In this document: positions 1,072 to 17,895 of the stretch, piece by piece
Numbering within the stretch: position 1 is the first letter of the stretch
Layout: each line of letters opens with the position of its first letter
Virus record (IMG/VR): IMGVR_UViG_3300022758_000225
Coordinates: 1-22,421 of that record
From: a virus
Taxonomy: Duplodnaviria > Heunggongvirae > Uroviricota > Caudoviricetes
Length of the DNA: 22,421 nt
Reading direction: 5' to 3' (one strand)
Made by a program: the position numbers and the translations under genes
The notes under the pieces: model-generated
What the model saw: the letters and a program-made list of their open reading frames with translations, nothing else
Told to the model about the DNA's origin: nothing
Databases searched by the model: none

Positions 1072-1881
1072 TCAATGAACGGTATCGAGCAGCTTTAACA
1101 GCTCAGGGAATCGGGATTCGAAGAAATGCGGCTGCGTCTCGCGCGGATTTGCGGGACTAGTGATGTTCTTGCCGAACATGCAGCCTTTCGCGGTCAGCGA
1201 CCAGAATTTTTTGATGTTGTTAATCGCGGTACGGCTGTATCGTTCGCGTTGTTCAACGATCCCCAGCTTCACCATCTGGTGATATGCCTGATTAGCCGTC
1301 AGGCGGATACCATACTGTTTCAGCAGTGCACTCAGTGACAGTGTCGGGCGACTTGAGCCATCGTGTGCATCAGCAGGAGCATCAATGGCATAGCGCGGTG
1401 CCAGATTCGGTAAGCCAACAGCCTCCTGGAGTTTCTGACAGGCACCAAGCACAGATGAGTTAGACAGGTTTAACTCCCGACGCATAAAGTCCAGCAGAAT
1501 CACACCAGCCTGCATCTTGTCAGCAGCCTGTCCGGATAATTTTTCCGGTGCGCTGGTTACCATGTCGAAAGTACGGATCACCTTCAGATGGAATGACGGG
1601 CTGATCCACATTGCATAGGCATACACCAGTTCCTTGCAGACATAAGTTCCCCGTTCATTTCCCCCATGAATCACACTCACCGGGTCAACACCCAAATTCT
1701 GGGTGTTGGTCAATTCATGAACAAGTTCAACAGTTTGTTGGCTGGAAAGAAACTTTCCTGGCTCCTTGGTTCTGGCATTTGCACCAGATGCTACTGCTGC
1801 GCGATGCAGATCGTTCAGGCTGTAACGCCCATAAGCATCACGACGAACTTCAATACCATCAATGACCATCAGATTATTCAT
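1072..1881 (-). CDS. KilA-N domain protein / phage antirepressor-like
   Basis: N-terminus MNNLMVIDGIEVRRDAYGRYSLNDLHRAA is KilA-N-like. ATG at 1881 is preceded by AGGAGA; the track ORF extends to 1914. Confidence 0.7.
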   Translation of the reverse strand: MNNLMVIDGIEVRRDAYGRYSLNDLHRAAVASGANARTKEPGKFLSSQQTVELVHELTNTQNLGVDPVSVIHGGNERGTYVCKELVYAYAMWISPSFHLKVIRTFDMVTSAPEKLSGQAADKMQAGVILLDFMRRELNLSNSSVLGACQKLQEAVGLPNLAPRYAIDAPADAHDGSSRPTLSLSALLKQYGIRLTANQAYHQMVKLGIVEQRERYSRTAINNIKKFWSLTAKGCMFGKNITSPANPRETQPHFFESRFPELLKLLDTVH

Positions 1882-1900
1882 ACTTCGTTTCTCCTCTTGA

Positions 1901-2290
1901 TCAGGCGGCTGCACCCGCCGTTTTCTCGTACTTACTGATGGTGATCTCGACCTTCCCTTTCGGGATAACCGGTCCCCACTCCACCAGCATTCTTTTCACC
2001 TGTCTGTCGTCTTCCCACACACCCGCGTGGGTCAACGCGTCAAACAGCGCCTTGTTATAGTTGTCCAGATCGCGGATCCGGTTATCCGGAGGAAACAACA
2101 CGATCTCCACTGAAGCAGGTGCCGACGTTGGTTTTGGCAGACGACGTAACTGCTCAACTATTGCTGCGCACGCCGCGCTCTGAAATTTTCGCCCCGCCGC
2201 GCTTATCAGGCTCTTACCAGCAAATGCCCCTTTGTTGGGGTGTCGCCAGTACGTGTTCACGCTGGGCGGGAAAGGCAGGATCAGCTTCAT
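1901..2290 (-). CDS. rusA: Holliday-junction resolvase RusA
   Basis: 129 aa with PPSVNTYWRH, DLDNYNKALFDAL and GVWEDDRQV motifs matching E. coli RusA. Start overlaps the upstream stop as ATGA. Confidence 0.85.
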   Translation of the reverse strand: MKLILPFPPSVNTYWRHPNKGAFAGKSLISAAGRKFQSAACAAIVEQLRRLPKPTSAPASVEIVLFPPDNRIRDLDNYNKALFDALTHAGVWEDDRQVKRMLVEWGPVIPKGKVEITISKYEKTAGAAA

Positions 2291-2613
2291 ACTTTCAGGC
2301 CTCTCTCATGTAACCAGTGGGTTGCACGCAGCCTGGCGTTTTCCTCACCGGCAAGCAGTGAGCGGATAATCCCGACCGCCTCGCTGTCGTCGTCCTTCAC
2401 CGCGGTATGAAGAGTGATACCCCGGGCCACGCCACGCTTTATCGTGATGACGCCTTTTTTCTCCAGTGCGCGAAGATGTTCCACCGCTGCATTCACTGAA
2501 CGGTATCCCAGCATGGTTGCCACCTCCTGATTGGTTGGCGGGAAGCCACGTTCTTTCTGGTAAGAAATCAGCATATCCAGCACCTGCTGCTGGCATTGAG
2601 TTAACGTCGTCAT
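2287..2613 (-). CDS. LexA N-terminal DNA-binding-domain protein lacking the S24 peptidase domain
   Basis: 108 aa; QQQVLDML...GFPPTNQEVATMLGYRSVNAAVEHLRALEKKGVI aligns by eye with the LexA winged-HTH domain. No Ala-Gly cleavage site or Ser/Lys dyad. ATGA overlaps at both ends. Confidence 0.7.
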   Translation of the reverse strand: MTTLTQCQQQVLDMLISYQKERGFPPTNQEVATMLGYRSVNAAVEHLRALEKKGVITIKRGVARGITLHTAVKDDDSEAVGIIRSLLAGEENARLRATHWLHERGLKV

Positions 2614-3263
2614 GCCGCCATCTCCCTGACCAGTTTTTCCGCCTGCTGGCGAACCTGCGCCAGAAACGCCTCACCACATGCCTCAAGTTCATCGCGCCCG
2701 ATGTAGCTGATTGCCGGTCCCTTCCAGGTCTTGTCGAAAACAGCAATAGCACCAGCGAAGAAAGCGCCTGTCGGCACCTGCTTCTCGTCCTTCGGTATAA
2801 ACCAGGCAGGCAGTTCAAAACCAATACGCCCGCGAATAAAAGCAATATGATCTGCATCTTCCGGCCACCACACTTCGCTGGTGGCCGCTTTGATCAGGAA
2901 AACATAGCGCCCGCCCTTATCACGCATGGCACTGGCATGTTTCATGATGTAACGCATGCCGGTGATGTATTGCCCCTCATGCTGACTGGCGCGGCTGTAT
3001 GGGGGATTACCAAAGGCAGCACCTTTAAGCTCCGCAAGACGTTCTGACCAGTCATGCGCCAGCGCGTTATCTTCCGCCGTGTAATACGCGGCACATTTGG
3101 CGTTATCACCGTCAGTAAACAGATCCAGAACAAACGGGCCAAACAGAGTGTTAATTCCCCAGAAAATGTTGTCCGGCGTGCGCCACTGATCGCCCACTTC
3201 CTTCAGTTCATGGGCTGGTTTGTTCCGCAGTTCCACCAGTGCCTGACAATATTTATTACTCAT
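2610..3263 (-). CDS. phage N6-adenine DNA methyltransferase (Dam-like orphan methylase)
   Basis: Contains the NPPY motif (FGNPPYS) and a DLFTDGDN region typical of phage N6-adenine methyltransferases. Preferred start is ATG at 3263, overlapping the upstream stop as TAATG; the track gives a GTG at 3296. Confidence 0.8.
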   Translation of the reverse strand: MSNKYCQALVELRNKPAHELKEVGDQWRTPDNIFWGINTLFGPFVLDLFTDGDNAKCAAYYTAEDNALAHDWSERLAELKGAAFGNPPYSRASQHEGQYITGMRYIMKHASAMRDKGGRYVFLIKAATSEVWWPEDADHIAFIRGRIGFELPAWFIPKDEKQVPTGAFFAGAIAVFDKTWKGPAISYIGRDELEACGEAFLAQVRQQAEKLVREMAA

Positions 3264-3745
3264 TAAGCCCCCACGTAATTCCCTGACAGATACCACTCTT
3301 CACCCGATGCTGCGCGCTTGCTGCTTTTCTGTAAGCACTGCTCACGACGCGCCAGAAAATTGTTTCGTTCTGGCTGGGAGTGGCTTTCACGGAATGCCGC
3401 CATCCACACCGTTGCAGCACGACGGTATAAGCCCCTGGACTCCAGTTCTTCAGCCTGGCGAATCACCCGGGGATCGTTAGTGCCGACATAGAAATTGCGC
3501 ACAGGTCTGGTTTCACGAACTGGTTGTGGTTCCGGCTCCTGCGCTCTCTCAGTCAGGCGCGGGAAATGTCTGCGTGTATCTCCTTCACAACGGTGAGCCA
3601 CACGCCCACTCTGACGTAACTTGCTTGCTGACTGCAGAACGCGCTGTCGTGAGTAACCTGCAAAAGCATCCGCAATGTCTCCGAAAGTACACCCCGGATG
3701 GGCTTCAATGAATTTCTGAACTTCATTCAAAAGACTCATGATCAC
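3263..3745 (-). CDS. putative DNA-binding regulator with PerC-like C-terminal region
   Basis: 160-aa ORF in an operon of overlapping genes. The segment RVIRQAEELESRGLYRRAATVWMAAF resembles PerC-family proteins, from recall only. Confidence 0.4.
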   Translation of the reverse strand: MIMSLLNEVQKFIEAHPGCTFGDIADAFAGYSRQRVLQSASKLRQSGRVAHRCEGDTRRHFPRLTERAQEPEPQPVRETRPVRNFYVGTNDPRVIRQAEELESRGLYRRAATVWMAAFRESHSQPERNNFLARREQCLQKSSKRAASGEEWYLSGNYVGA

Positions 3746-4332
3746 CCCCTGAATCCTACCGGGATCTGGCTGTAGTCCACGTTGTCGTAACTGGCTTTGA
3801 AGTACGGGTCTTCACGTTTTTCTGTGTGCGTGCTGACGGACGGCGATAAGCGCAGGGAAAGCTCATCCCATTTTTCCCTCAACTTCGACGGGCTGAGCAC
3901 GTTACGGTACCAGAACGGATCGCGGCTGACGCGGCTGTACATCTCGCAGATTTGTTTGTGAGTACGACCATCCTGCACACACATCAGGCGAATTTCGTTT
4001 GCCCATGCTGTCCAGTTCGGTTCTTTGGGACGAACCACCTCGCCGTCACATTCGGCGGCCTGCTCGTACAGGGCGATGATTTTTTTCCAGAGCCACTGTG
4101 CGCAGGTCAAATCATCCTGCGTTCCCCACTGGCGCTTTTTAGGGCTGAATACAACCGCATCAGGATGGCGAGTTAAAAACTCCTGTTCAGCCGTTTGCGT
4201 GTCCGGTTGCGAAGCGTCCGGACGAGAAGAGGTTTTATTCTCTGTAGTAATCTCTGTTGTATTCTCTGTAAGATCATTGGGCCATTTTGACCCGATGACA
4301 GCGTGTCGTTTTGAACCAATGGATCGTGTCAT
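3742..4332 (-). CDS. replication protein, C-terminal part (O-like linker plus C-terminal domain)
   Basis: 196 aa. N-terminus is low-complexity (TENTTEITTENKTSS) and is encoded by the iteron region. ATG overlaps the stop of the replisome-organizer ORF as ATGA. Function inferred from position and iteron linkage. Confidence 0.5.
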   Translation of the reverse strand: MTRSIGSKRHAVIGSKWPNDLTENTTEITTENKTSSRPDASQPDTQTAEQEFLTRHPDAVVFSPKKRQWGTQDDLTCAQWLWKKIIALYEQAAECDGEVVRPKEPNWTAWANEIRLMCVQDGRTHKQICEMYSRVSRDPFWYRNVLSPSKLREKWDELSLRLSPSVSTHTEKREDPYFKASYDNVDYSQIPVGFRG

Positions 4333-5990: not shown

Positions 5991-6684
5991 ATGAACATAG
6001 GAAACCGAGTCAGACAACTTCGCCAGGCGAAGAACATGAAAATCGCCGATCTCGCTGAAGCAATAGGAGTGGATGCGGCGAATATCTCACGCCTGGAAAC
6101 AGGTAAGCAGAAACAATTCACTGAACAAGCCCTGAGTAATATTGCCAGGAGCTTAGGTGTTGATATTGCTGATCTCTTTACCTCAGACGTCAAAAGTAAT
6201 ACTGTATGTAAAAACAGTATTAGTGAGGATGTTGCGCAGGTGAAGGATGTATTCCGTATTGAAATGCTGGATGTCAGTGCCAGTGCGGGAAATGGCCTTA
6301 TCCAGGGCGGTGATGTCATTGATGTGATTCATGCCATTGAATACAGAACTGATAATGCTGTATCGATGTTTTGGCGGACGGCCAGCCAATCACATTAAAG
6401 TTATCAACGTTCGTGGGGACAGTATGTGTCCAACCATTGAGCCAGGAGATCTCATCTTCGTTGATGTCAGTATCAATCAGTTTGATGGAGATGGTATCTA
6501 TGTATTTGGTTTTGATGATAAAATTTATGTCAAGCGACTGCAAATGATACCTGACAAACTACTGGTGATTTCTGATAACCAGATTTACCGTGAATGGGGA
6601 ATTACCAGCGAAAATGAACACCGGTTTATGGTCTTTGGAAAGGTCTTAATCAGCCAGTCACAAACCCTTAAGCGACACAATTAA
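5991..6684 (+). pseudogene. cI-like prophage repressor (XRE HTH plus S24 LexA-like peptidase domain) interrupted by a frameshift
   Basis: ORF 5991..6398 carries the HTH (IADLAEAIGVDAANISRLETGKQ) and an Ala-Gly site (SASAGNG). ORF 6331..6684 in the +1 frame carries the S24 motifs GDSMCPTIEPGD and KRL. Removing one T from the T4 run at 6369-6372 joins them as ...NAVSMFGGRPANHIKV.... Confidence 0.7.
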
Positions 6685-12719: not shown

Positions 12720-13256
12720 CTACTGAGCAAATTTAAGAAAGATATCCTGCAGCTCATCAATGACTGCAGACATCACATAACCGCACTGTTCCATGCGGAA
12801 ACCAAAAGACTCGTAATACTGCACCAGTTCTGGTACTGGCTCTACAATGTGGACAACTTTACATTCAACAGCTTTACAAAATATAAAAGCACTCATAAGA
12901 GTGAGTAAAACCATGCGCCCTTTCAATGGGTGAGATTCATCTTCTCTAGAAAACCTTTCGATCATATGGATACGAAAGATGTTTTCTTCAACCCCATAAA
13001 CACAAATTGCTGCTCCTGATGGTATTCCCTGAACCCGACCTTGCTGAACAAGTTTTATGCAGAACTCATACTTTTCTCTGGAGTTGCCATAGGTGCTTAA
13101 CGCATAGTCCCATTCAAGCTCACCATAGCCACCACACAGAATCTTGTAATCATCATCACTGAGCGGACCAACAGCAAGAGGTAAGCCGACATGATCAATA
13201 ATCAACTGGATATTGTTACGTACAGATTGACCTATCTCGTCTAGGGTAAGCATCAT
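12720..13256 (-). CDS. GNAT-like acetyltransferase-fold protein (moron candidate)
   Basis: 178 aa. KGRMVLLTLMS and ELVQYYESFGF resemble GNAT motifs A and B. Opposite strand to its neighbours and visibly AT-rich. Fold call is tentative. Confidence 0.45.
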   Translation of the reverse strand: MMLTLDEIGQSVRNNIQLIIDHVGLPLAVGPLSDDDYKILCGGYGELEWDYALSTYGNSREKYEFCIKLVQQGRVQGIPSGAAICVYGVEENIFRIHMIERFSREDESHPLKGRMVLLTLMSAFIFCKAVECKVVHIVEPVPELVQYYESFGFRMEQCGYVMSAVIDELQDIFLKFAQ

Positions 13257-13536
13257 AGACTCTCAAGCGGAACACTAAAAATCTCATTATATCTCATTCT
13301 GATGCCCCGCATGGATTACACCTTGAAATGAAAACACCGGGTTCCCAATAGGCTCCCACAAAGTGTATAACTACTTGTTTTTCAAAAACGGTACATCCTA
13401 TCGAGCATAGGAGCAATGCTAAACCGAGAACTCCAGTAAGCGCCAGTTTTTTCAGGCATCACGCTGGTTTGATTAGTTTTCTGTATTTCAGGATTATCGT
13501 GCATTTTTGAACATTTCAGGCTATTTTTCTCGCGTT

Positions 13537-13572
13537 AGGTTCCCGCACAGGTTCCCACGTTTTATGGGAACC
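13537..13572. promoter_or_regulatory. repeated GGTTCCC motifs upstream of the integrase gene (candidate arm-type or regulator binding sites)
   Basis: AGGTTCCC at 13537-13544 and 13549-13556; inverted copy GGGAACC at 13566-13572, forming TTCCCA-N7-TGGGAA. Related GGTTCCCA and GGCTCCCA copies at 13340-13347 and 13351-13358. Confidence 0.35.
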
Positions 13573-13592
13573 CGAAATAACGAGGTCGTGTA

Positions 13593-14690
13593 ATGGCGTA
13601 CTATAACATAGAGAAACGACTAAAATCCGATGGCACACCACGCTATCGCTGTAATGTGATTATCAAAGAAAAAGGTGTTATCACTTACAGGGAAAGCAAA
13701 ACATTCCCTAAACATGCTCATGCCAAAACATGGGGCGCACAGAAAGTGATGGAATTAGATCTATATGGCATTCCATCATCAAATGCTGTTGATGGACTTA
13801 CAGTCCGTGACTTACTACACAAATATTTAAATGACCCAAATGCCGGAGGTAAAGCAGGCCGTACTAAAAGATATGTGCTGGAACTGCTTATGGATAGTGA
13901 CATATCCGCGATCAAACTATCTGAACTGACAGAAAATGACGTAATTGAACATTGCAGGCTAAGAAACAACGCTGGTGCAGGCCCAGCAACAGTCAGCCAC
14001 GATGTTAGTTATCTTGGCAGTGTTCTGGATGCGGCAAAACCTGTATACGGAATCAATTACACATCAAACCCGGCGAAAAGCGCTCGTCCATATCTACTTA
14101 AACTCGGTTTGATTGGTAAATCAAACCGTCGTAATCGTAGACCAGCATCTGATGAACTGGACATGCTCATTGAAGGCCTTCAACAACGATCTACTCATAA
14201 ATGCTCAAAAATTCCGTTCGTTGATATCCTCAAATTTTCTGTGTGGTCCTGTATGCGAATCGGAGAAGTATGCCGGTTACGATGGGAAGATCTCGACCAA
14301 GAACAAAAATCTATACTAGTAAGAGATAGGAAAGATCCACGTAAAAAGGAAGGTAACCATATGAAAGTTGCCTTGCTTGGGGAAGCCTGGGATATCGTCC
14401 AGCGCCAACCCAAAAAATCAGAATTCATTTTTCCATATAACAGCACTTCTGTTACCGCAGGATTTCAGAGGGTAAGAAGCAAATTAGGTATTAAAGATCT
14501 GCGATACCATGATTTGCGTAGAGAAGGGGCAAGTCGCTTATTTGAGGCTGGTTTTAGTATTGAGGAAGTCGCTCAAGTTACAGGGCATCGTTCATTAAAC
14601 GTGCTATGGCAGGTATATACCGAACTGTATCCGAAATCTTTACATAATCGTTTTGAAGAACTCCAAAAGAGCAGAAACAAGACCTCTTGA
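13593..14690 (+). CDS. int: tyrosine site-specific integrase
   Basis: 365 aa with C-terminal catalytic signature YHDLRREGASRLFEAGFSIEEVAQVTGHRSLNVLWQVYTEL (HxxR and Tyr nucleophile). RBS GAGG. Confidence 0.9.
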   Translation: MAYYNIEKRLKSDGTPRYRCNVIIKEKGVITYRESKTFPKHAHAKTWGAQKVMELDLYGIPSSNAVDGLTVRDLLHKYLNDPNAGGKAGRTKRYVLELLMDSDISAIKLSELTENDVIEHCRLRNNAGAGPATVSHDVSYLGSVLDAAKPVYGINYTSNPAKSARPYLLKLGLIGKSNRRNRRPASDELDMLIEGLQQRSTHKCSKIPFVDILKFSVWSCMRIGEVCRLRWEDLDQEQKSILVRDRKDPRKKEGNHMKVALLGEAWDIVQRQPKKSEFIFPYNSTSVTAGFQRVRSKLGIKDLRYHDLRREGASRLFEAGFSIEEVAQVTGHRSLNVLWQVYTELYPKSLHNRFEELQKSRNKTS

Positions 14691-14692
14691 CA

Positions 14693-14736
14693 CTGTTTAT
14701 TTATACAGATAAAAATAACACTGTATACAAACACAG
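14693..14736. promoter_or_regulatory. two tandem LexA (SOS) boxes upstream of the dinI-like gene
   Basis: CTGTttatttatACAG (14693-14708) and CTGTatacaaacACAG (14721-14736); both match CTGT-N8-ACAG exactly and lie 16-60 nt upstream of the ATG at 14752. Confidence 0.7.
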
Positions 14737-14751
14737 TATAGAGGGATTTTT

Positions 14752-15000
14752 ATGCGTATTGAAATCTGCATAGCCAAAGAGAAAATGACTAAAATGCCAA
14801 ACGGTGCTGTGGATGCGTTAAAGGAAGAATTAACTCGGCGCATCAGTAAGCGTTATGACGATGTAGAAGTGATCGTAAAAGCCACCAGCAATGATGGGCT
14901 TTCTGTTACACGCACAGCAGATAAGGATTCTGCAAAAACATTTGTTCAGGAGACTCTGAAAGATACCTGGGAGTCTGCTGACGAGTGGTTTGTTCACTAA
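14752..15000 (+). CDS. DinI-like DNA-damage-inducible protein
   Basis: 82 aa; [11 protein letters not shown]...[16 protein letters not shown] matches the E. coli DinI family along its length. RBS GAGGGA. Confidence 0.85.
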
Positions 15001-15068
15001 TAAACACGTAAAATCGGTAACGGCTGGAAATCATTCAATACCCGCACTATCGAAAGTTCACCAGCCAA

Positions 15069-15112
15069 CCGCAGCACGTCCTGCATACGTCGTGTCTGCG
15101 GTTTTTCTTTTT
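15069..15112 (+). terminator. intrinsic terminator downstream of int and dinI (tI/sib-like position)
   Basis: Stem ccgcagcacg / cgtgtctgcgg with one bulge, followed by TTTTTcTTTTT. Confidence 0.45.
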
Positions 15113-15253
15113 CGCTTACATTGTGTCTGGTTCTTCCGGCCACTCAATATCAGGTGCAGTTGATGTATCAACACGGTTCAGCAACACCCTGCATGCCTTC
15201 CATGCCGCCAGCAATGATGTTTCCTCCTTCGTTGCATATACTGCTCACCTTTT

Positions 15254-15547
15254 TCACCCACGATTAACCAACAGCCAGATCAGCAGACACGCCACCACCG
15301 GCACAGCAAAATCCATCAGACTTGCCATATCCCACACGCGCGGGTCAAAACCACCCCACCACGGCATATTCATACGCTTGCCATGCCCGAACATTTCAAT
15401 CCAGCGATATTCTGCCTGGGTGTGTTCCCGCGCAATGAAGAACGTACAACCGGCTATCGCCCCGTAAGCCCAGTTTCCGGTAAAAAGACCAGCCAGTACC
15501 TGCACCGCTACGGCACAAAGCGCATGAAGTATCGACGTGATATCCAT
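15254..15547 (-). CDS. small hydrophobic (membrane) protein, moron candidate
   Basis: 97 aa with hydrophobic N- and C-terminal segments (LHALCAVAVQVLAGLF and FAVPVVACLLIWLLV). Last gene of the tail operon direction. Confidence 0.45.
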   Translation of the reverse strand: MDITSILHALCAVAVQVLAGLFTGNWAYGAIAGCTFFIAREHTQAEYRWIEMFGHGKRMNMPWWGGFDPRVWDMASLMDFAVPVVACLLIWLLVNRG

Positions 15548-15556
15548 CTGCTATCC

Positions 15557-15835
15557 TTAAAACCACTCCCTGAGCGGGCGCTCTGGTGTAACCACCCACT
15601 CACGGAACACGGAATCATCAAATCCATCGTCAAGAAGACGGATATTAACAAAGTACCCTTCGTTTCGCGTGTATTCTGGTTCTCCGTCATCAGGAACATC
15701 TGTCTCCCTGAACGTAAAACCAATCTCATCAACCAGAACGGCATTCTGCAGCTCTTCGTCCTCTTCCCAGTTAAGTTTCCTGAGAAATGCCCTGAAATCT
15801 GCTTTATCACTGAAACGCAACGTGAAATCTCTCAC
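15557..15835 (-). CDS. hypothetical acidic protein downstream of the tail fibre gene
   Basis: 92 aa. Start overlaps the stf stop as ATGA. No resemblance to lambda Tfa. Confidence 0.45.
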   Translation of the reverse strand: MRDFTLRFSDKADFRAFLRKLNWEEDEELQNAVLVDEIGFTFRETDVPDDGEPEYTRNEGYFVNIRLLDDGFDDSVFREWVVTPERPLREWF

Positions 15836-17895
15836 TCCACAACCTCCCCAAGCTGCGCATCTGTTAGCTCTTTATGCCAGAGACGAAAATTCCTCACATG
15901 CCCAAATAAATGGCGTAATCCTGCTGTAGTTTGTCCACCAATGCGAATGGTTGCTGTACTCCGGATATATTCCCATGTGGTTTTTGTTTCGCTGGATATA
16001 CGCCCGTTACTTACTGCACATGTAGACTGATCTGACTTTACACGCATCCCCATAACCATTTTTTTCAACGATGCGTTTTCGTTAACACGCCTATTTGATC
16101 CACCAATATCGCAATAAGGAAATCCGTCTGGCCCATCTGCCGAAGATCCGAAGCCAAGAATAATAGCCGCTCCGGTTTGATGACCGCCGGTATCAAAAAC
16201 ACGTGGCGCTGCATTTGGCGTTTTATACCAGTTCTTATGTACCTCACAAAGAACCGTAAAAGGAAGATTATAAAGATTATTATTAATTGGAACTGTAACT
16301 ATATCGCTTGCGCGGGTAGCCGCCGTCGTTCCTGAGATAATAAAAGATGATGCACACGAACCATCCTCAACCTGAGGGGTGGCCAGATAAATATAGTCTC
16401 CAGATACGGTTGCTCCGCCCTGATTAGGAGAATACTGTATCTGAGATCCTATTTTTAACTCATCATCAATTGCCAGGATTGTTGCCTCTGCAAAAATCCA
16501 TCCGGTAGCTTCGTCCTTTCTGACTCTCGCTGTAATCCTTGAGGCCGCGCCACCTGTCATATTAATTTCAAGCGTTTGTGTATCAATATATGCATCACCA
16601 AGAAAAGTTGTTGCACTACCGTCATATTTATCAAAGCGGATACGCAACCTTACCTGTCGTTCTGTTTTAAAACGACATGAGGTTGTCACGTACTTGTTAT
16701 CGCCTGAAACATCAACTGACTTTGTAGCAGCAATTGATGCCATATTAATGGCTGACGTTTGCCCAATCAGAGAATCGTTACAAACAAACTTTCCATAAGT
16801 AAAACCAAAACTATCAGTTCCAACCTCAGCGACATTCATATTTGCAGATTTACCCCAAGAAGCTGGAGTTGCTGAATTCAACATGTAGTTGGTTCGCTGA
16901 CCTTCAATCAATAAACCTTCTTTTTCAAATCGTGGCTCATTAATTTCCGCCGTTTTCAGTTCGCCAGATTTGTTGATATATGTTGCCGTTGATGCGCGAC
17001 TGAAATTAACCTGTTTATCACTGGCAACCTGAACCACATTATCACCAATCTTCACTTTTTTATAACCCGGAGAATAGCCCGTAATCATATCCAGCGAATC
17101 ATTAAAGGGTATCCACACATCCGGCAGCGGCTGTAAAACATATCTGTACGGCTCTGCTGTCTGGTTTGCGTATTCTCTGGCAGCATCTTCACTTGCTTTT
17201 GCTGCCGTCTGGCTTGCTGCCGATGCTTTCGCCGAGTTCGCCGCCGCTGTTTCGCTCACCTTTGCGTTGGCTTCACTGTCTTTGGCATTCGTCTCACTGG
17301 TTTTCGCTGCCGTCTGGCTGGATTTTGCGTTTTTTTCGCTGGCCTTTGTGGCTGTCTCGCTATTTTTCGCGCTGGTTTCTGATTTTTTGGCTGCTGTCGC
17401 GGAGTTTGCCGATGCAGTCTGCGAGGCCGCTGCCGCCTGTGCGCTGTTAGCTGCATTCGTTTCTGAGGTTTTCGCCGCATTCTTCGATGAGGCTGCTGCC
17501 GTTTCGGATTTCTTTGCCGCCGCTGCACTCTGTGATGACGCTCCGGCATGACGTGCCACTTCATTCACCATCAGCTCAAAACGGCGCAGTGCCTCCGGAC
17601 GGGCATCATCCTCCGTCATGGCACCGAGAAAATCATTCAGCGTACCTGGTCTGGAACCTTCATAGACGGTAATGGTCCCGGCATGTGAAGGTGGAAAACC
17701 TTCAACCAGCAGGGTGACGCTGTACTGGCCATACTCAACATCCATGCTGTAACGCCCGGCTTCATCCGGATTTTCTGAGGCCACCGTGTTCACCACCACC
17801 GTGGTGCTGTTACGTTTTGCTTTCAGCTGGATTGTGCAGTTCTGTACCGGTTTACCTGCACCGTCTTTCAGTACACCTGAAATCTTTACTGCCAT
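15832..17895 (-). CDS. stf: side tail fibre protein (lambda Stf-like N-terminus, A/S/T-rich repeat stalk, lectin-like C-terminal domain)
   Basis: N-terminus MAVKISGVLKDGAGKPVQNCTIQLKA...GFPPSHAGTITVYE matches lambda Stf. C-terminus GHVRNFRLWHKELTDAQLGEV resembles the end of concanavalin-A/LamG-type domains. ATG at 17895 with a GGGGTGA SD. Confidence 0.8.
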   Translation of the reverse strand: MAVKISGVLKDGAGKPVQNCTIQLKAKRNSTTVVVNTVASENPDEAGRYSMDVEYGQYSVTLLVEGFPPSHAGTITVYEGSRPGTLNDFLGAMTEDDARPEALRRFELMVNEVARHAGASSQSAAAAKKSETAAASSKNAAKTSETNAANSAQAAAASQTASANSATAAKKSETSAKNSETATKASEKNAKSSQTAAKTSETNAKDSEANAKVSETAAANSAKASAASQTAAKASEDAAREYANQTAEPYRYVLQPLPDVWIPFNDSLDMITGYSPGYKKVKIGDNVVQVASDKQVNFSRASTATYINKSGELKTAEINEPRFEKEGLLIEGQRTNYMLNSATPASWGKSANMNVAEVGTDSFGFTYGKFVCNDSLIGQTSAINMASIAATKSVDVSGDNKYVTTSCRFKTERQVRLRIRFDKYDGSATTFLGDAYIDTQTLEINMTGGAASRITARVRKDEATGWIFAEATILAIDDELKIGSQIQYSPNQGGATVSGDYIYLATPQVEDGSCASSFIISGTTAATRASDIVTVPINNNLYNLPFTVLCEVHKNWYKTPNAAPRVFDTGGHQTGAAIILGFGSSADGPDGFPYCDIGGSNRRVNENASLKKMVMGMRVKSDQSTCAVSNGRISSETKTTWEYIRSTATIRIGGQTTAGLRHLFGHVRNFRLWHKELTDAQLGEVVE
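17180..17560. repeat. imperfect tandem repeats encoding the Ala/Ser/Thr/Lys-rich stalk of Stf
   Basis: Repeated gctgccg / ttcgc / ttttcgc units on the plus strand, translating to KxSETxAxNS-type repeats. They generate spurious ORFs on both strands. Confidence 0.5.

What the first reader, a model, noticed from the sequence alone, without database searches (positions are those of the whole stretch)
14693..15000. dinI-like gene controlled by two consensus LexA boxes, in a phage that also encodes a LexA DNA-binding-domain-only protein
Two CTGT-N8-ACAG boxes lie directly upstream of the dinI-like gene, and E. coli dinI is LexA-regulated. Separately, the nin region encodes a 108-aa protein resembling only the LexA DNA-binding domain (2287-2613). 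The phage may both respond to and manipulate the host SOS circuit: DinI-type proteins modulate RecA filaments, and a non-cleavable LexA-like binder could hold SOS boxes closed or form mixed dimers.
Basis: partly seen in the sequence, partly recalled or inferred. Interest (0 to 1): 0.55.

Follow-up and report, generated by a model that had tools for sequence, protein, structure and literature searches.

The report
SOS-controlled phage dinI gene cassette
A lambda-like E. coli phage carries a small self-contained gene for a RecA-binding DinI-type protein that the host DNA-damage repressor LexA almost certainly switches off; this kind of cassette is already known, but the same phage also has an uncharacterised "LexA DNA-binding domain only" protein and a very well conserved LexA site inside its own repressor gene.

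Summary
Two perfect CTGT-N8-ACAG boxes (14693-14708, 14721-14736) lie in the spacer and over the start region of a near-consensus promoter. The promoter's -35 contains the integrase stop codon. An 82-aa DinI-family gene (14752-15000) and a terminator (15067-15112) follow. The promoter-operator-gene unit recurs behind at least four unrelated upstream sequences, so it is an autonomous SOS-inducible moron. All eight RecA-contact residues of E. coli DinI are kept or conservatively replaced. LexA-controlled prophage dinI genes are already known (Gifsy phages), so this part is ordinary.

The 108-aa protein (2287-2613, minus strand) is real. It has a LexA winged helix (about 50% identical to E. coli LexA residues 1-68) plus its own two-helix tail, and no protease domain. 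It belongs to phage family phrog_362, uncharacterised as far as I could find. The only studied analogue is GIL01 gp6, an activator. That it binds SOS boxes is possible but unproven, and mixed dimers with LexA are unlikely.

Beyond the finding, the best LexA box in the window lies inside the cI repressor gene (6200-6219). It is conserved at that position in 16 of 19 species-level CI homologues.

The parts
13593..14690 (+). Tyrosine integrase of the dusA-targeting type. Its TGA stop (14688-14690) lies inside the -35 hexamer of the dinI promoter.
   Evidence: Pfam Phage_integrase 1.1e-20. In E. coli PMV-1 the same int-dinI pair lies directly beside dusA.
14687..14692 (+). -35 hexamer TTGACA of the dinI-like promoter
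   Evidence: Promoter scan: TTGACA-18-AAAAAT, 10 of 12 matches. mEp460 annotates a promoter at the same place. Homology between cassettes in different contexts begins here.
14693..14708 (.). LexA box 1 (20-mer 14691-14710, CACTGTTTATTTATACAGAT), filling the promoter spacer
   Evidence: The CTGT/ACAG arms are kept while the box spacer varies among cassettes. The identical 16-mer precedes dinI in Klebsiella phage Kp4865-4.
14711..14716 (+). -10 hexamer AAAAAT (alternative register TAAAAA, 14710-14715)
14721..14736 (.). LexA box 2 (20-mer 14719-14738, CACTGTATACAAACACAGTA), over the predicted transcription start and 15 nt before the ATG
14742..14746 (+). Ribosome-binding site GAGGG
   Evidence: Read from the sequence
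14752..15000 (+). dinI-like gene, 82 aa (DinI family, phrog_189)
   Evidence: Pfam DinI 1.2e-19; phrog_189 4.4e-31; 46% identical to E. coli DinI, with RecA-contact residues conserved
15067..15112 (+). Intrinsic terminator: bulged GC hairpin followed by TTTTTCTTTTT
   Evidence: RNA fold -20 kcal/mol, z = -2.7. Homology with SKA5 and Lys8385Vzw ends near 15101.
2287..2613 (-). 108-aa protein with only the LexA DNA-binding domain (phrog_362): winged HTH (residues 1-68), linker, and a two-helix tail (75-103). Its start and stop codons overlap those of dam and rusA (ATGA).
6200..6219 (.). Third and strongest LexA box, TACTGTATGTAAAAACAGTA, inside the linker-coding part of the cI repressor gene
5991..6684 (+). 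CI-type repressor gene (HTH + S24 peptidase), split here into two ORFs by one extra T at 6369-6372
13404..13504 (-). Phage-borne replacement 5' end of dusA; the attP crossover lies at about 13380-13404
   Evidence: Identity with the PMV-1 attL junction starts at 13404, and the dusA start codon maps to 13504

Best explanation
Positions 14687-15112 form a self-contained SOS-inducible accessory cassette (a 'moron') at the integrase end of a lambdoid, dusA-integrating phage of the mEp460/cdtI/SfV type.

Anatomy: a near-consensus sigma-70 promoter carries one LexA operator in its spacer and a second over its start site. A ribosome-binding site, an 82-aa DinI-family gene and an intrinsic terminator follow.

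Proposed mechanism: in a lysogen, two host LexA dimers keep the cassette shut. DNA damage produces RecA filaments and LexA cleaves itself, so the gene is transcribed (inferred). The product binds in the groove of the RecA filament as E. coli DinI does (inferred from conserved contact residues). That groove also receives LexA, UmuD and CI-type repressors. The phage therefore adds its own dose of a RecA-filament modulator just when its S24-type CI repressor is being cleaved. Whether this damps or promotes induction is not known; I lean towards damping or threshold-setting.

The 108-aa protein is a different module. It is a LexA winged-helix domain fused to a private two-helix tail, probably for dimerisation. 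It is translationally coupled within the nin operon, so it is presumably made only after the lytic promoter opens. It cannot be cleaved like LexA, and its DNA target is unknown.
For: - Boxes and promoter geometry.
- Cassette conserved as a unit behind at least 4 unrelated upstream sequences. Homology starts at the -35, and both boxes keep their CTGT/ACAG (or CTGG) arms while the box spacers vary.
- Terminator. No ORF lies between dinI and the terminator.
- DinI membership: Pfam and PHROG. The RecA-contact residues L13, L21, E24, E69, W71, D76, W77, F78 of E. coli DinI read M, L, E, D, W, E, W, F here.
- Precedent: Gifsy dinI homologues have a LexA box and are induced 4.6- to 23-fold by nalidixic acid.
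- The phage repressor has an S24 domain and an Ala-Gly site, so it is the RecA-cleavable type.
- 108-aa protein: full LexA_DNA_bind domain; 1LEA/3JSO are the top structural matches at 1.4-1.6 A rmsd and 50% identity; the C-terminal helices are conserved in the family but absent from LexA; start and stop codons overlap the neighbouring genes, and no promoter-like site was found in 1800-3800.
Against: - Nothing here was measured. LexA binding, damage induction and RecA binding are all inferred.
- The weight matrix rests on operator sequences recalled from memory.
- Non-polar deletions of the Gifsy dinI homologues had no significant effect on induction, so the cassette's physiological effect may be small or may lie elsewhere.
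- The protein scores below the NCBIfam equivalog cut-off for E. coli DinI (72.5 against 111), so it is a paralogue and may behave differently towards RecA.
Confidence: 0.8

Rival explanations
1. The 108-aa protein is an uncleavable LexA surrogate. After host LexA has been destroyed it re-occupies CTGT-N8-ACAG boxes. These include the phage's own boxes (dinI promoter, the cI linker, and in relatives the 5' end of a late-operon methyltransferase gene) and perhaps host SOS operators.
For: - About 50% identity with the LexA DNA-binding domain. Helix-III contact residues S39, N41, A42 and E45 are kept.
- Only N8 spacing of CTGT/ACAG is enriched in the window.
- In Klebsiella prophages the homologue is the third gene of a LexA-boxed dinI operon.
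- 34 of 39 viral contigs carrying the methyltransferase box also carry the gene 2.7-6.4 kb upstream.
- All ten E. coli/Shigella phages with this cI allele also carry it.
Against: - Glu44 is replaced in 12 of 12 family members and Glu45 in 4 of 12, including the Klebsiella protein (Leu-Leu).
- Half-site spacing in LexA is set by the C-terminal dimer, and here a different tail must do that job.
- The cI-internal box is conserved in many species whose prophages show no homologue within 6 kb (14 of 18), so those boxes evolved for host LexA.
- Co-occurrence within a few kb of a mosaic genome may be plain linkage.
- 91 loci of two other lineages have no LexA box within 3 kb.
Confidence: 0.25
2. The 108-aa protein is a phage-specific transcription factor whose specificity has drifted away from the SOS box, as with GIL01 gp6. 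It acts on phage promoters or in a process linked to its constant neighbour rusA, and has no direct SOS role.
For: - gp6 is a LexA-DBD-only phage protein that binds a different site and activates the late promoter.
- The recognition helix is variable across the family.
- The gene lies immediately upstream of rusA in the window, in 4 Citrobacter-type loci and in 90 of 91 loci of two other lineages.
- PHROGs files the family simply as a transcription regulator.
Against: - No candidate alternative operator was found. No other CTGT/ACAG spacing is enriched.
- There is no BLASTP similarity to gp6, so any functional analogy is only by architecture.
- The Klebsiella operon context points towards SOS.
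Confidence: 0.45
3. The dinI cassette is an induction module of the Gifsy or phage 186 Tum type: the LexA-controlled transcript also encodes an antirepressor that inactivates the phage repressor.
For: In Gifsy phages dinI is the first gene of a LexA-controlled antirepressor operon, and 186 Tum is an antirepressor-DinI fusion. The Klebsiella relatives have a small ORF (phrog_1813) after dinI.
Against: - Here a terminator follows dinI after 66 nt with no intervening ORF.
- The protein is DinI-length with no N-terminal extension.
- The repressor is an S24 self-cleaving type that needs no antirepressor.
Confidence: 0.05
4. The two boxes are chance or decayed palindromes, and the gene is constitutive or silent.
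For: The boxes are AT-rich and lie in an AT-rich intergenic stretch. One of 100 shuffles of the window gave three pattern matches.
Against: Both boxes score within the range of real operators, against a shuffle median of 10.6. They lie exactly on the promoter. They are retained in every cassette variant seen, including diverged ones.
Confidence: 0.03

Closest known systems
E. coli chromosomal dinI (b1061) and its LexA-controlled promoter
   Same: About 80-aa DinI fold family, 46% identity, conserved TWESAD(D/E)WF C-terminal helix and RecA-contact residues. A LexA box lies just before the ATG.
   Different: K-12 dinI has one visible box with a CCAG arm (ACCTGTATAAATAACCAGTA). The phage copy has two CTGT...ACAG boxes on a TTGACA promoter. 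The phage protein is below the NCBIfam equivalog cut-off and travels as a mobile cassette.
Gifsy-1/2/3 dinI-gfoA/gftA-irsA operons of Salmonella (Lemire et al. 2011, PMC3121763)
   Same: Prophage-borne dinI homologue preceded by a terminator, a promoter and a LexA box. Induction by DNA damage has been shown experimentally.
   Different: In Gifsy phages there is one box, the operon lies in the nin region, and it continues into an antirepressor gene and irsA. Here there are two boxes, the cassette lies next to int, and it is monocistronic. Identity between the DinI proteins is about 42%.
Coliphage 186 Tum / PSP3 (LexA-controlled antirepressor with a DinI-like half)
   Same: LexA-repressed phage gene with a DinI-like sequence. 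The PHROG profile for DinI (151 positions) is matched only over its C-terminal half, positions 71-149.
   Different: There is no antirepressor half here.
GIL01 gp6 (Fornelos et al. 2018, PMC6182141)
   Same: Phage-encoded truncated LexA homologue consisting of the LexA winged-helix domain, in a phage whose promoters carry LexA boxes.
   Different: gp6 is 66 aa with no tail, comes from a Bacillus tectivirus, binds a non-LexA site and activates the late promoter. There is no BLASTP similarity to the 108-aa protein, so the two are independent captures. The 108-aa protein adds a conserved two-helix tail.
Host LexA repressor
   Same: The N-terminal winged helix is superimposable (1.4 A rmsd, 50% identity) with 4 of 5 helix-III contact residues kept.
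   Different: No S24 domain, no Ser/Lys dyad, no conserved Ala-Gly, and no C-terminal dimer interface. It scores below the lexA equivalog cut-off (70.8 against 110.95).

Membership tests
DinI family (Pfam PF06183) | Profile match above the curated cut-off over the whole domain | tested here: met
   70.8 bits against 24.2; residues 16-80 cover profile positions 1-63 of 63
DinI family (Pfam PF06183) | Residues that contact the RecA filament (L13, L21, W71, W77, F78 pocket; E24, E69, D76 acidic patch) | tested here: met
   M, L, W, W, F and E, D, E in the alignment with E. coli DinI: 5 identical, 3 conservative
DinI family (Pfam PF06183) | Equivalog of E. coli DinI (NCBIfam NF007893) | tested here: not met
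   72.5 bits against a cut-off of 111. It is a DinI-like paralogue, not the chromosomal orthologue.
DinI family (Pfam PF06183) | Binds RecA nucleoprotein filaments and modulates co-protease activity | not testable with these tools
   Needs biochemistry
SOS (LexA) regulon member | CTGT-N8-ACAG operator of operator-grade score | tested here: met
   Two perfect cores; matrix scores 19.7 and 20.9, within the 12.3-26.9 range of the training operators
SOS (LexA) regulon member | Operator overlaps the promoter or transcription start | tested here: met
   Box 1 fills the spacer between -35 and -10; box 2 starts 5 nt after the -10 hexamer
SOS (LexA) regulon member | Operators conserved in homologous loci | tested here: met
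   Both boxes are present in all 28 distinct upstream variants from 62 loci
SOS (LexA) regulon member | LexA binding and derepression after DNA damage | not testable with these tools
   Shown only for the Gifsy homologues in the literature
LexA repressor (TIGR00498 equivalog) | N-terminal LexA winged-helix DNA-binding domain | tested here: met
   Pfam 2.9e-19; Foldseek top hits 1LEA and 3JSO
LexA repressor (TIGR00498 equivalog) | C-terminal S24 peptidase / dimerisation domain with a Ser-Lys dyad | tested here: not met
   The protein ends at residue 108, and there is no Peptidase_S24 hit
LexA repressor (TIGR00498 equivalog) | Conserved Ala-Gly self-cleavage site | tested here: not met
   A88-G89 is present in the window protein, but the Gly is replaced (E, R, D, C and others) in several family members
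LexA repressor (TIGR00498 equivalog) | Whole-protein score above the equivalog cut-off | tested here: not met
   70.8 against 110.95
phrog_362 (phage LexA-DBD protein with helical tail) | Full-length match including the C-terminal extension | tested here: met
   1.1e-59; residues 1-108 against profile positions 1-106 of 106. The Klebsiella homologue also matches, at 7.6e-42.
GIL01 gp6-like LexA-DBD-only activators | Sequence relationship to gp6 | tested here: not met
   BLASTP finds no alignment at E <= 100
GIL01 gp6-like LexA-DBD-only activators | Binds a non-LexA site at about -43 of a late promoter and activates it | not testable with these tools
   The late promoter lies outside the window, and no binding data exist

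The most novel reading that the evidence does not exclude
This phage lineage is wired into the host SOS circuit at several points, not only through RecA-stimulated CI cleavage. In the complete relative mEp460, operator-grade LexA boxes sit at the dinI promoter, inside the cI coding sequence (the linker) and at codons 3-9 of a late-operon methyltransferase gene. The two intragenic boxes would act as LexA roadblocks, or as sites for an as yet unseen internal promoter. They could tune CI supply and late transcription according to LexA level. The phrog_362 protein would be an uncleavable stand-in that takes over these boxes once LexA is gone. The cI-internal box alone occurs in prophages of about 19% of complete E. 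coli genomes. I found no report of it in the searchable literature.
Probability: 0.2. Interest if true: 0.75.

Novelty: new variant of a known kind. Interest (0 to 1): 0.45.

Why it matters
On its own the dinI cassette adds little. LexA-controlled prophage dinI genes are documented, and this exact sequence is common and already annotated in E. coli, Shigella and Stx phages.

It matters as part of a larger pattern. A widespread group of lambdoid prophages, including Stx2c-, cdt- and serotype-converting phages, carries several operator-grade LexA sites and a LexA-derived DNA-binding protein. If these work together, they would change how induction thresholds are understood in these phages. That in turn bears on toxin release and gene transfer after antibiotic-induced DNA damage. 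They would also give a second, independent example (after GIL01 gp6) of a phage capturing the DNA-binding head of LexA.

The conserved LexA box inside cI is directly testable with synonymous mutations.

Tried and rejected
- Other half-site geometries for the 108-aa protein. I counted CTGT/ACAG inverted, everted and direct arrangements at spacings 0-20. Only inverted N8 is enriched.
- A promoter next to the cI-internal box. The consensus scan found none. Comparison of 18 diverse sequences shows that only the box itself is conserved, with no fixed -35 on either strand. The roadblock and internal-promoter ideas therefore remain undecided.
- A promoter for the late methyltransferase just upstream of its box in mEp460: none found.
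- An internal promoter for the 108-aa gene in the nin region: none found in 1800-3800.
- The small ORF between dinI and the LexA-DBD gene in Klebsiella as a GfoA-type antirepressor: no BLASTP similarity to Gifsy-1 GfoA. It is phrog_1813, function unknown.
- IrsA of the Gifsy operon as a relative of the 108-aa protein: rejected. The gene after gfoA in Gifsy-1 (STM2620, which I take to be irsA) is a 200-aa gene annotated as similar to Pseudomonas phage D3 Orf79.
- Sequence relationship to GIL01 gp6: none.
- Literature searches for a characterised enterobacterial LexA-DBD-only phage protein, or for LexA sites inside phage repressor genes, found nothing beyond GIL01. The ST64B transcriptome paper mentions damage-responsive features downstream of cI but gives no positions.
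- The Ala-Gly at residues 88-89 as a LexA-like cleavage or decoy site: not conserved in the family.
- A rigorous genome-wide test of co-occurrence between dinI and phrog_362 was not possible, because hit tables list at most 60 records.

Full report
**What the window is.** The window is the early, integration and tail-fibre part of a lambdoid phage of the mEp460/cdtI/SfV type, written in the reverse of the usual lambda orientation. From left to right it holds:
- nin-type genes on the minus strand (DUF968/HNH, KilA-N, RusA, the 108-aa gene, Dam);
- replication genes;
- cro and cI;
- early-left genes;
- an integrase (13593-14690, +);
- the dinI-like gene;
- tail-fibre, lom and J genes on the minus strand.

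The stretch 13500-15900 is 100% identical to a prophage of E. coli PMV-1 and 96% identical to phage mEp460.

In PMV-1 the int-dinI pair lies directly beside dusA. Identity with that junction begins at window position 13404, and the dusA start codon maps to 13504. The phage therefore carries a replacement 5' end of dusA, with attP at about 13380-13404. Because the window runs across attP, it shows the phage form rather than an integrated prophage.

**The observation.** The pattern CTGT-N8-ACAG occurs three times in the window against 0.31 expected. The two 20-mers score 19.7 and 20.9, inside the range of real operators. The best non-box site scores 11.0, and the median best score of shuffled windows is 10.6.

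The dinI region reads as a complete expression unit:
- -35 hexamer TTGACA at 14687-14692, which contains the TGA stop of int;
- box 1, which fills the spacer;
- -10 hexamer AAAAAT at 14711-14716;
- box 2, which begins five bases later;
- GAGGG ribosome-binding site;
- ATG at 14752 and stop at 15000;
- a bulged GC hairpin followed by TTTTTCTTTTT at 15067-15112 (-20 kcal/mol, z = -2.7).

No ORF lies between the gene and the terminator.

**The cassette is a mobile unit.** I compared 62 related viral loci with enough upstream sequence and found 28 distinct upstream variants. The dinI gene is preceded by at least four unrelated sequences: this integrase, two different 'GCCCCA'-rich contexts, and a terminator-bearing context. 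In each case homology starts at the -35. Both boxes keep their CTGT/ACAG (occasionally CTGG) arms while the box spacers vary (TTTATTTAT, TTTATCCAT, TTTATTTGT). This is the signature of an autonomous moron carrying its own LexA-controlled promoter. mEp460's annotators marked the promoter, but that record annotates no LexA boxes here.

**The protein.** The product matches Pfam DinI (1.2e-19) and phrog_189, and is 46% identical to E. coli DinI. [quoted passage not shown] Here these positions read M, L, W, W, F and E, D, E. It scores below the NCBIfam equivalog cut-off (72.5 against 111), so it is a DinI-like paralogue rather than the chromosomal orthologue.

By inference it binds the RecA filament groove. 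According to the same paper, LexA, UmuD and lambda CI use that groove too. This phage's CI belongs to the HTH + S24 self-cleaving type with an Ala-Gly site. A damage-induced extra dose of a groove binder should therefore alter CI cleavage.

The direction of the effect is unknown. Authors of Stx-phage genome papers have guessed that it limits induction (PMC8456039). Deleting the Gifsy dinI homologues had no significant effect on induction (PMC3121763).

**How new is this part?** It is not new in kind. Gifsy-1, -2 and -3 carry dinI homologues behind a terminator, promoter and LexA box. Replacing that region made induction arabinose-dependent. The genes are induced 4.6- to 23-fold by nalidixic acid.

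Three things differ here. There are two strong operators instead of one. The cassette lies next to int rather than in the nin region. The unit is monocistronic, whereas the Gifsy operon continues into an antirepressor gene and irsA. The K-12 chromosomal dinI has a single visible box. The Salmonella chromosomal gene has a strong and a weak box.

**The 108-aa protein.** Residues 1-65 match the complete LexA_DNA_bind profile, and residues 1-90 align with E. coli LexA 1-86 at 43% identity. An AlphaFold model (mean pLDDT 79) has three parts: a winged helix-turn-helix, a low-confidence linker at residues 69-74, and two helices at 75-87 and 93-103. Foldseek's best matches are the LexA DNA-binding domain structures 1LEA and 3JSO, at 1.4-1.6 A rmsd and about 50% identity.

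There is no S24 domain. The Ala-Gly at 88-89 is not conserved in relatives. The protein scores below the lexA equivalog cut-off.

It belongs full-length to phrog_362, labelled only 'transcriptional repressor'. The family is common in Enterobacterales prophages. The two-helix tail is conserved in the family and absent from LexA. I take it to be a private dimerisation element, which is an inference.

The gene's ATG overlaps the dam stop codon, and its own stop overlaps the rusA ATG. No promoter-like site lies nearby. It is therefore presumably made with the other nin genes after the lytic promoter opens.

**Does it bind SOS boxes?**

In favour:
- four of the five helix-III contact residues of LexA (S39, N41, A42, E44, E45; PMC3091678) are kept in the window protein;
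- N8 is the only enriched spacing of CTGT/ACAG in the window.

Against:
- Glu44 is replaced in all 12 family members examined;
- Glu45 is replaced in 4 of 12, including the Klebsiella protein, which reads Leu-Leu. This looks like diversifying specificity rather than specificity locked to an invariant host operator;
- the tail, not a LexA C-terminal dimer, would have to set half-site spacing.

Mixed dimers with LexA are unlikely, because LexA's dimer interface is in the C-terminal domain that this protein lacks.

The only characterised analogue I found is GIL01 gp6. It is a 66-aa LexA-DBD-only protein that binds a different site and activates the late promoter (PMC6182141). It shows no BLASTP similarity to the 108-aa protein, so the two are independent captures of a LexA head.

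**Is the 108-aa gene linked to dinI?** The evidence is mixed.
- In a Klebsiella prophage lineage, 76 of 80 viral contigs show a dinI homologue about 350 bp upstream of the phrog_362 gene, separated by a small ORF where examined (Kp4865-4). 70 of these also have a strong LexA box just before dinI. That box is sometimes the identical 16-mer to box 1 here. These loci are closely related, so this counts as roughly one lineage.
- In the window, in Citrobacter prophages and in 91 loci of two other lineages, the gene sits in the nin region. In the window, the four Citrobacter-type loci and 90 of those 91 loci it lies directly upstream of rusA. The 91 loci have no LexA box or dinI within 3 kb.
- The two genes often share a genome (mEp460, cdtI, 2H10, Stx2c phages), but each also occurs without the other.

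**What else turned up.** The strongest LexA box in the window is not at dinI. TACTGTATGTAAAAACAGTA at 6200-6219 scores 25.7, above the best of 200 shuffles (20.2). It lies inside the cI gene, in the linker between the HTH and S24 domains. The evidence that it is conserved at the DNA level:
- It is invariant in arm sequence in the cI genes of mEp460, SfII, ST64B and two Klebsiella phages, while the neighbouring linker codons diverge with indels.
- In a species-level genome scan, 16 of 19 CI homologues have an operator-grade box at the same offset, +206 or +209 from the start codon. They come from Shigella, Citrobacter, Pseudescherichia, Pantoea, Mixta, Rosenbergiella, Proteus and Serratia, at 54-96% amino-acid identity.
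- One of the three exceptions (a Dryocola strain) still has a CTGT-N8-ACAG core at this position, though it scores below the matrix threshold.
- Across 18 distinct sequences, the box arms are 95% conserved. The 30 bases upstream are 66% conserved and the 30 bases downstream 51%.
- Most of these prophages have no phrog_362 gene within 6 kb, so host LexA is the likely ligand.
- This cI allele is present in 1039 of 5426 complete E. coli genomes.

I found no conserved promoter beside the box. A LexA roadblock on cI transcription and an unrecognised internal or antisense promoter both remain open.

A further box, TACTGTAAAAATAAACAGTG, lies at codons 3-9 of a methyltransferase gene between Q and the holin gene. 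It is present in mEp460, SfV, cdtI and an Stx2c phage. Of 39 viral contigs with this box and enough upstream sequence, 34 carry phrog_362 at 2.7-6.4 kb. That could be plain linkage. mEp460 thus has four operator-grade LexA boxes in 44.5 kb.

My literature searches found no description of either intragenic box.

**Verdict.**
- The dinI cassette is a clear but ordinary SOS-controlled moron, a variant of a known kind.
- The 108-aa protein is a real, widespread and apparently unstudied LexA-head protein. Its link to SOS boxes is plausible but unproven, and partly contradicted by its variable recognition helix.
- The most interesting lead lies outside the given coordinates: the conserved LexA operator embedded in the cI gene.

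Noticed in passing
window 6200-6219 (inside cI, 5991-6684): The best LexA box in the window (TACTGTATGTAAAAACAGTA) lies in the linker-coding part of the cI repressor gene. It is conserved at the same offset in 16 of 19 species-level CI homologues across Enterobacterales, while the flanking linker is hypervariable (box arms 95% conserved, flanks 51-66%). Its role is unknown: a LexA roadblock or a hidden promoter are both possible.
   Followed up: yes
window 6369-6372: A run of four T where mEp460, SfII, ST64B and the Klebsiella phages have three. This splits cI into an HTH fragment (5991-6398) and an S24 fragment (6331-6684). None of the listed best matches, all at 99.3% among 1039 E. coli genomes with this allele, carries the extra T. 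It is either a private inactivating mutation or a homopolymer sequencing error.
   Followed up: partly
L178 (mEp460) 41021-41040; L176 (SfV) 34170-34189; L177 (cdtI) 44083-44102; L300 (Stx2c_2409) 16747-16766: An operator-grade LexA box (TACTGTAAAAATAAACAGTG) lies at codons 3-9 of a DNA methyltransferase gene in the late operon between Q and the holin gene, with no promoter-like site just upstream. 34 of 39 viral contigs with this box also carry the 108-aa gene 2.7-6.4 kb upstream. This region is outside the window.
   Followed up: partly
L004 (Klebsiella phage Kp4865-4) 2462-3469; L092-L171: Operon made of a terminator, a LexA box (16-mer identical to box 1), dinI, a small ORF of unknown function (phrog_1813) and a 130-aa phrog_362 LexA-DBD protein. 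Its recognition helix reads Leu-Leu at LexA positions 44-45.
   Followed up: partly
window 13404-13504 (minus strand) and about 13380-13404: The phage carries a surrogate 5' end of the host dusA gene next to attP, as expected for dusA-integrating elements. The window is continuous across attP, so it represents the excised or virion form.
   Followed up: partly
window 14687-14692: The integrase stop codon TGA (14688-14690) is embedded in the -35 hexamer TTGACA of the dinI promoter. LexA bound at box 1 therefore sits at the very 3' end of int.
   Followed up: no
window 1901-2613 (minus strand); L172-L175, L301-L391: The LexA-DBD gene lies immediately upstream of rusA, with overlapping stop and start codons in the window. 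This holds in the window, in four Citrobacter-type loci and in 90 of 91 loci of two other lineages, and hints at a functional or expression link with the Holliday-junction resolvase.
   Followed up: partly
window 6200-6219 and L178 41021-41040: Both intragenic LexA boxes are read in the same frame and encode Asn/Thr-Thr-Val-x-x-Asn-Ser (NTVCKNS in CI, NTVKINS in the methyltransferase). The palindrome dictates a short peptide motif.
   Followed up: no
window 15116-15235 (minus strand) and 15254-15547 (minus strand): Just after the dinI terminator lies a remnant annotated in PMV-1 as a truncated tail-fibre assembly gene. It is followed by a 97-aa protein of unknown function with no Pfam hit (phrog_1443).
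   Followed up: no
window 12720-13256 (minus strand): A 178-aa ORF of unknown function (phrog_4350, no Pfam hit) lies between the excision genes and attP, opposite in direction to int. It may be another moron.
   Followed up: no
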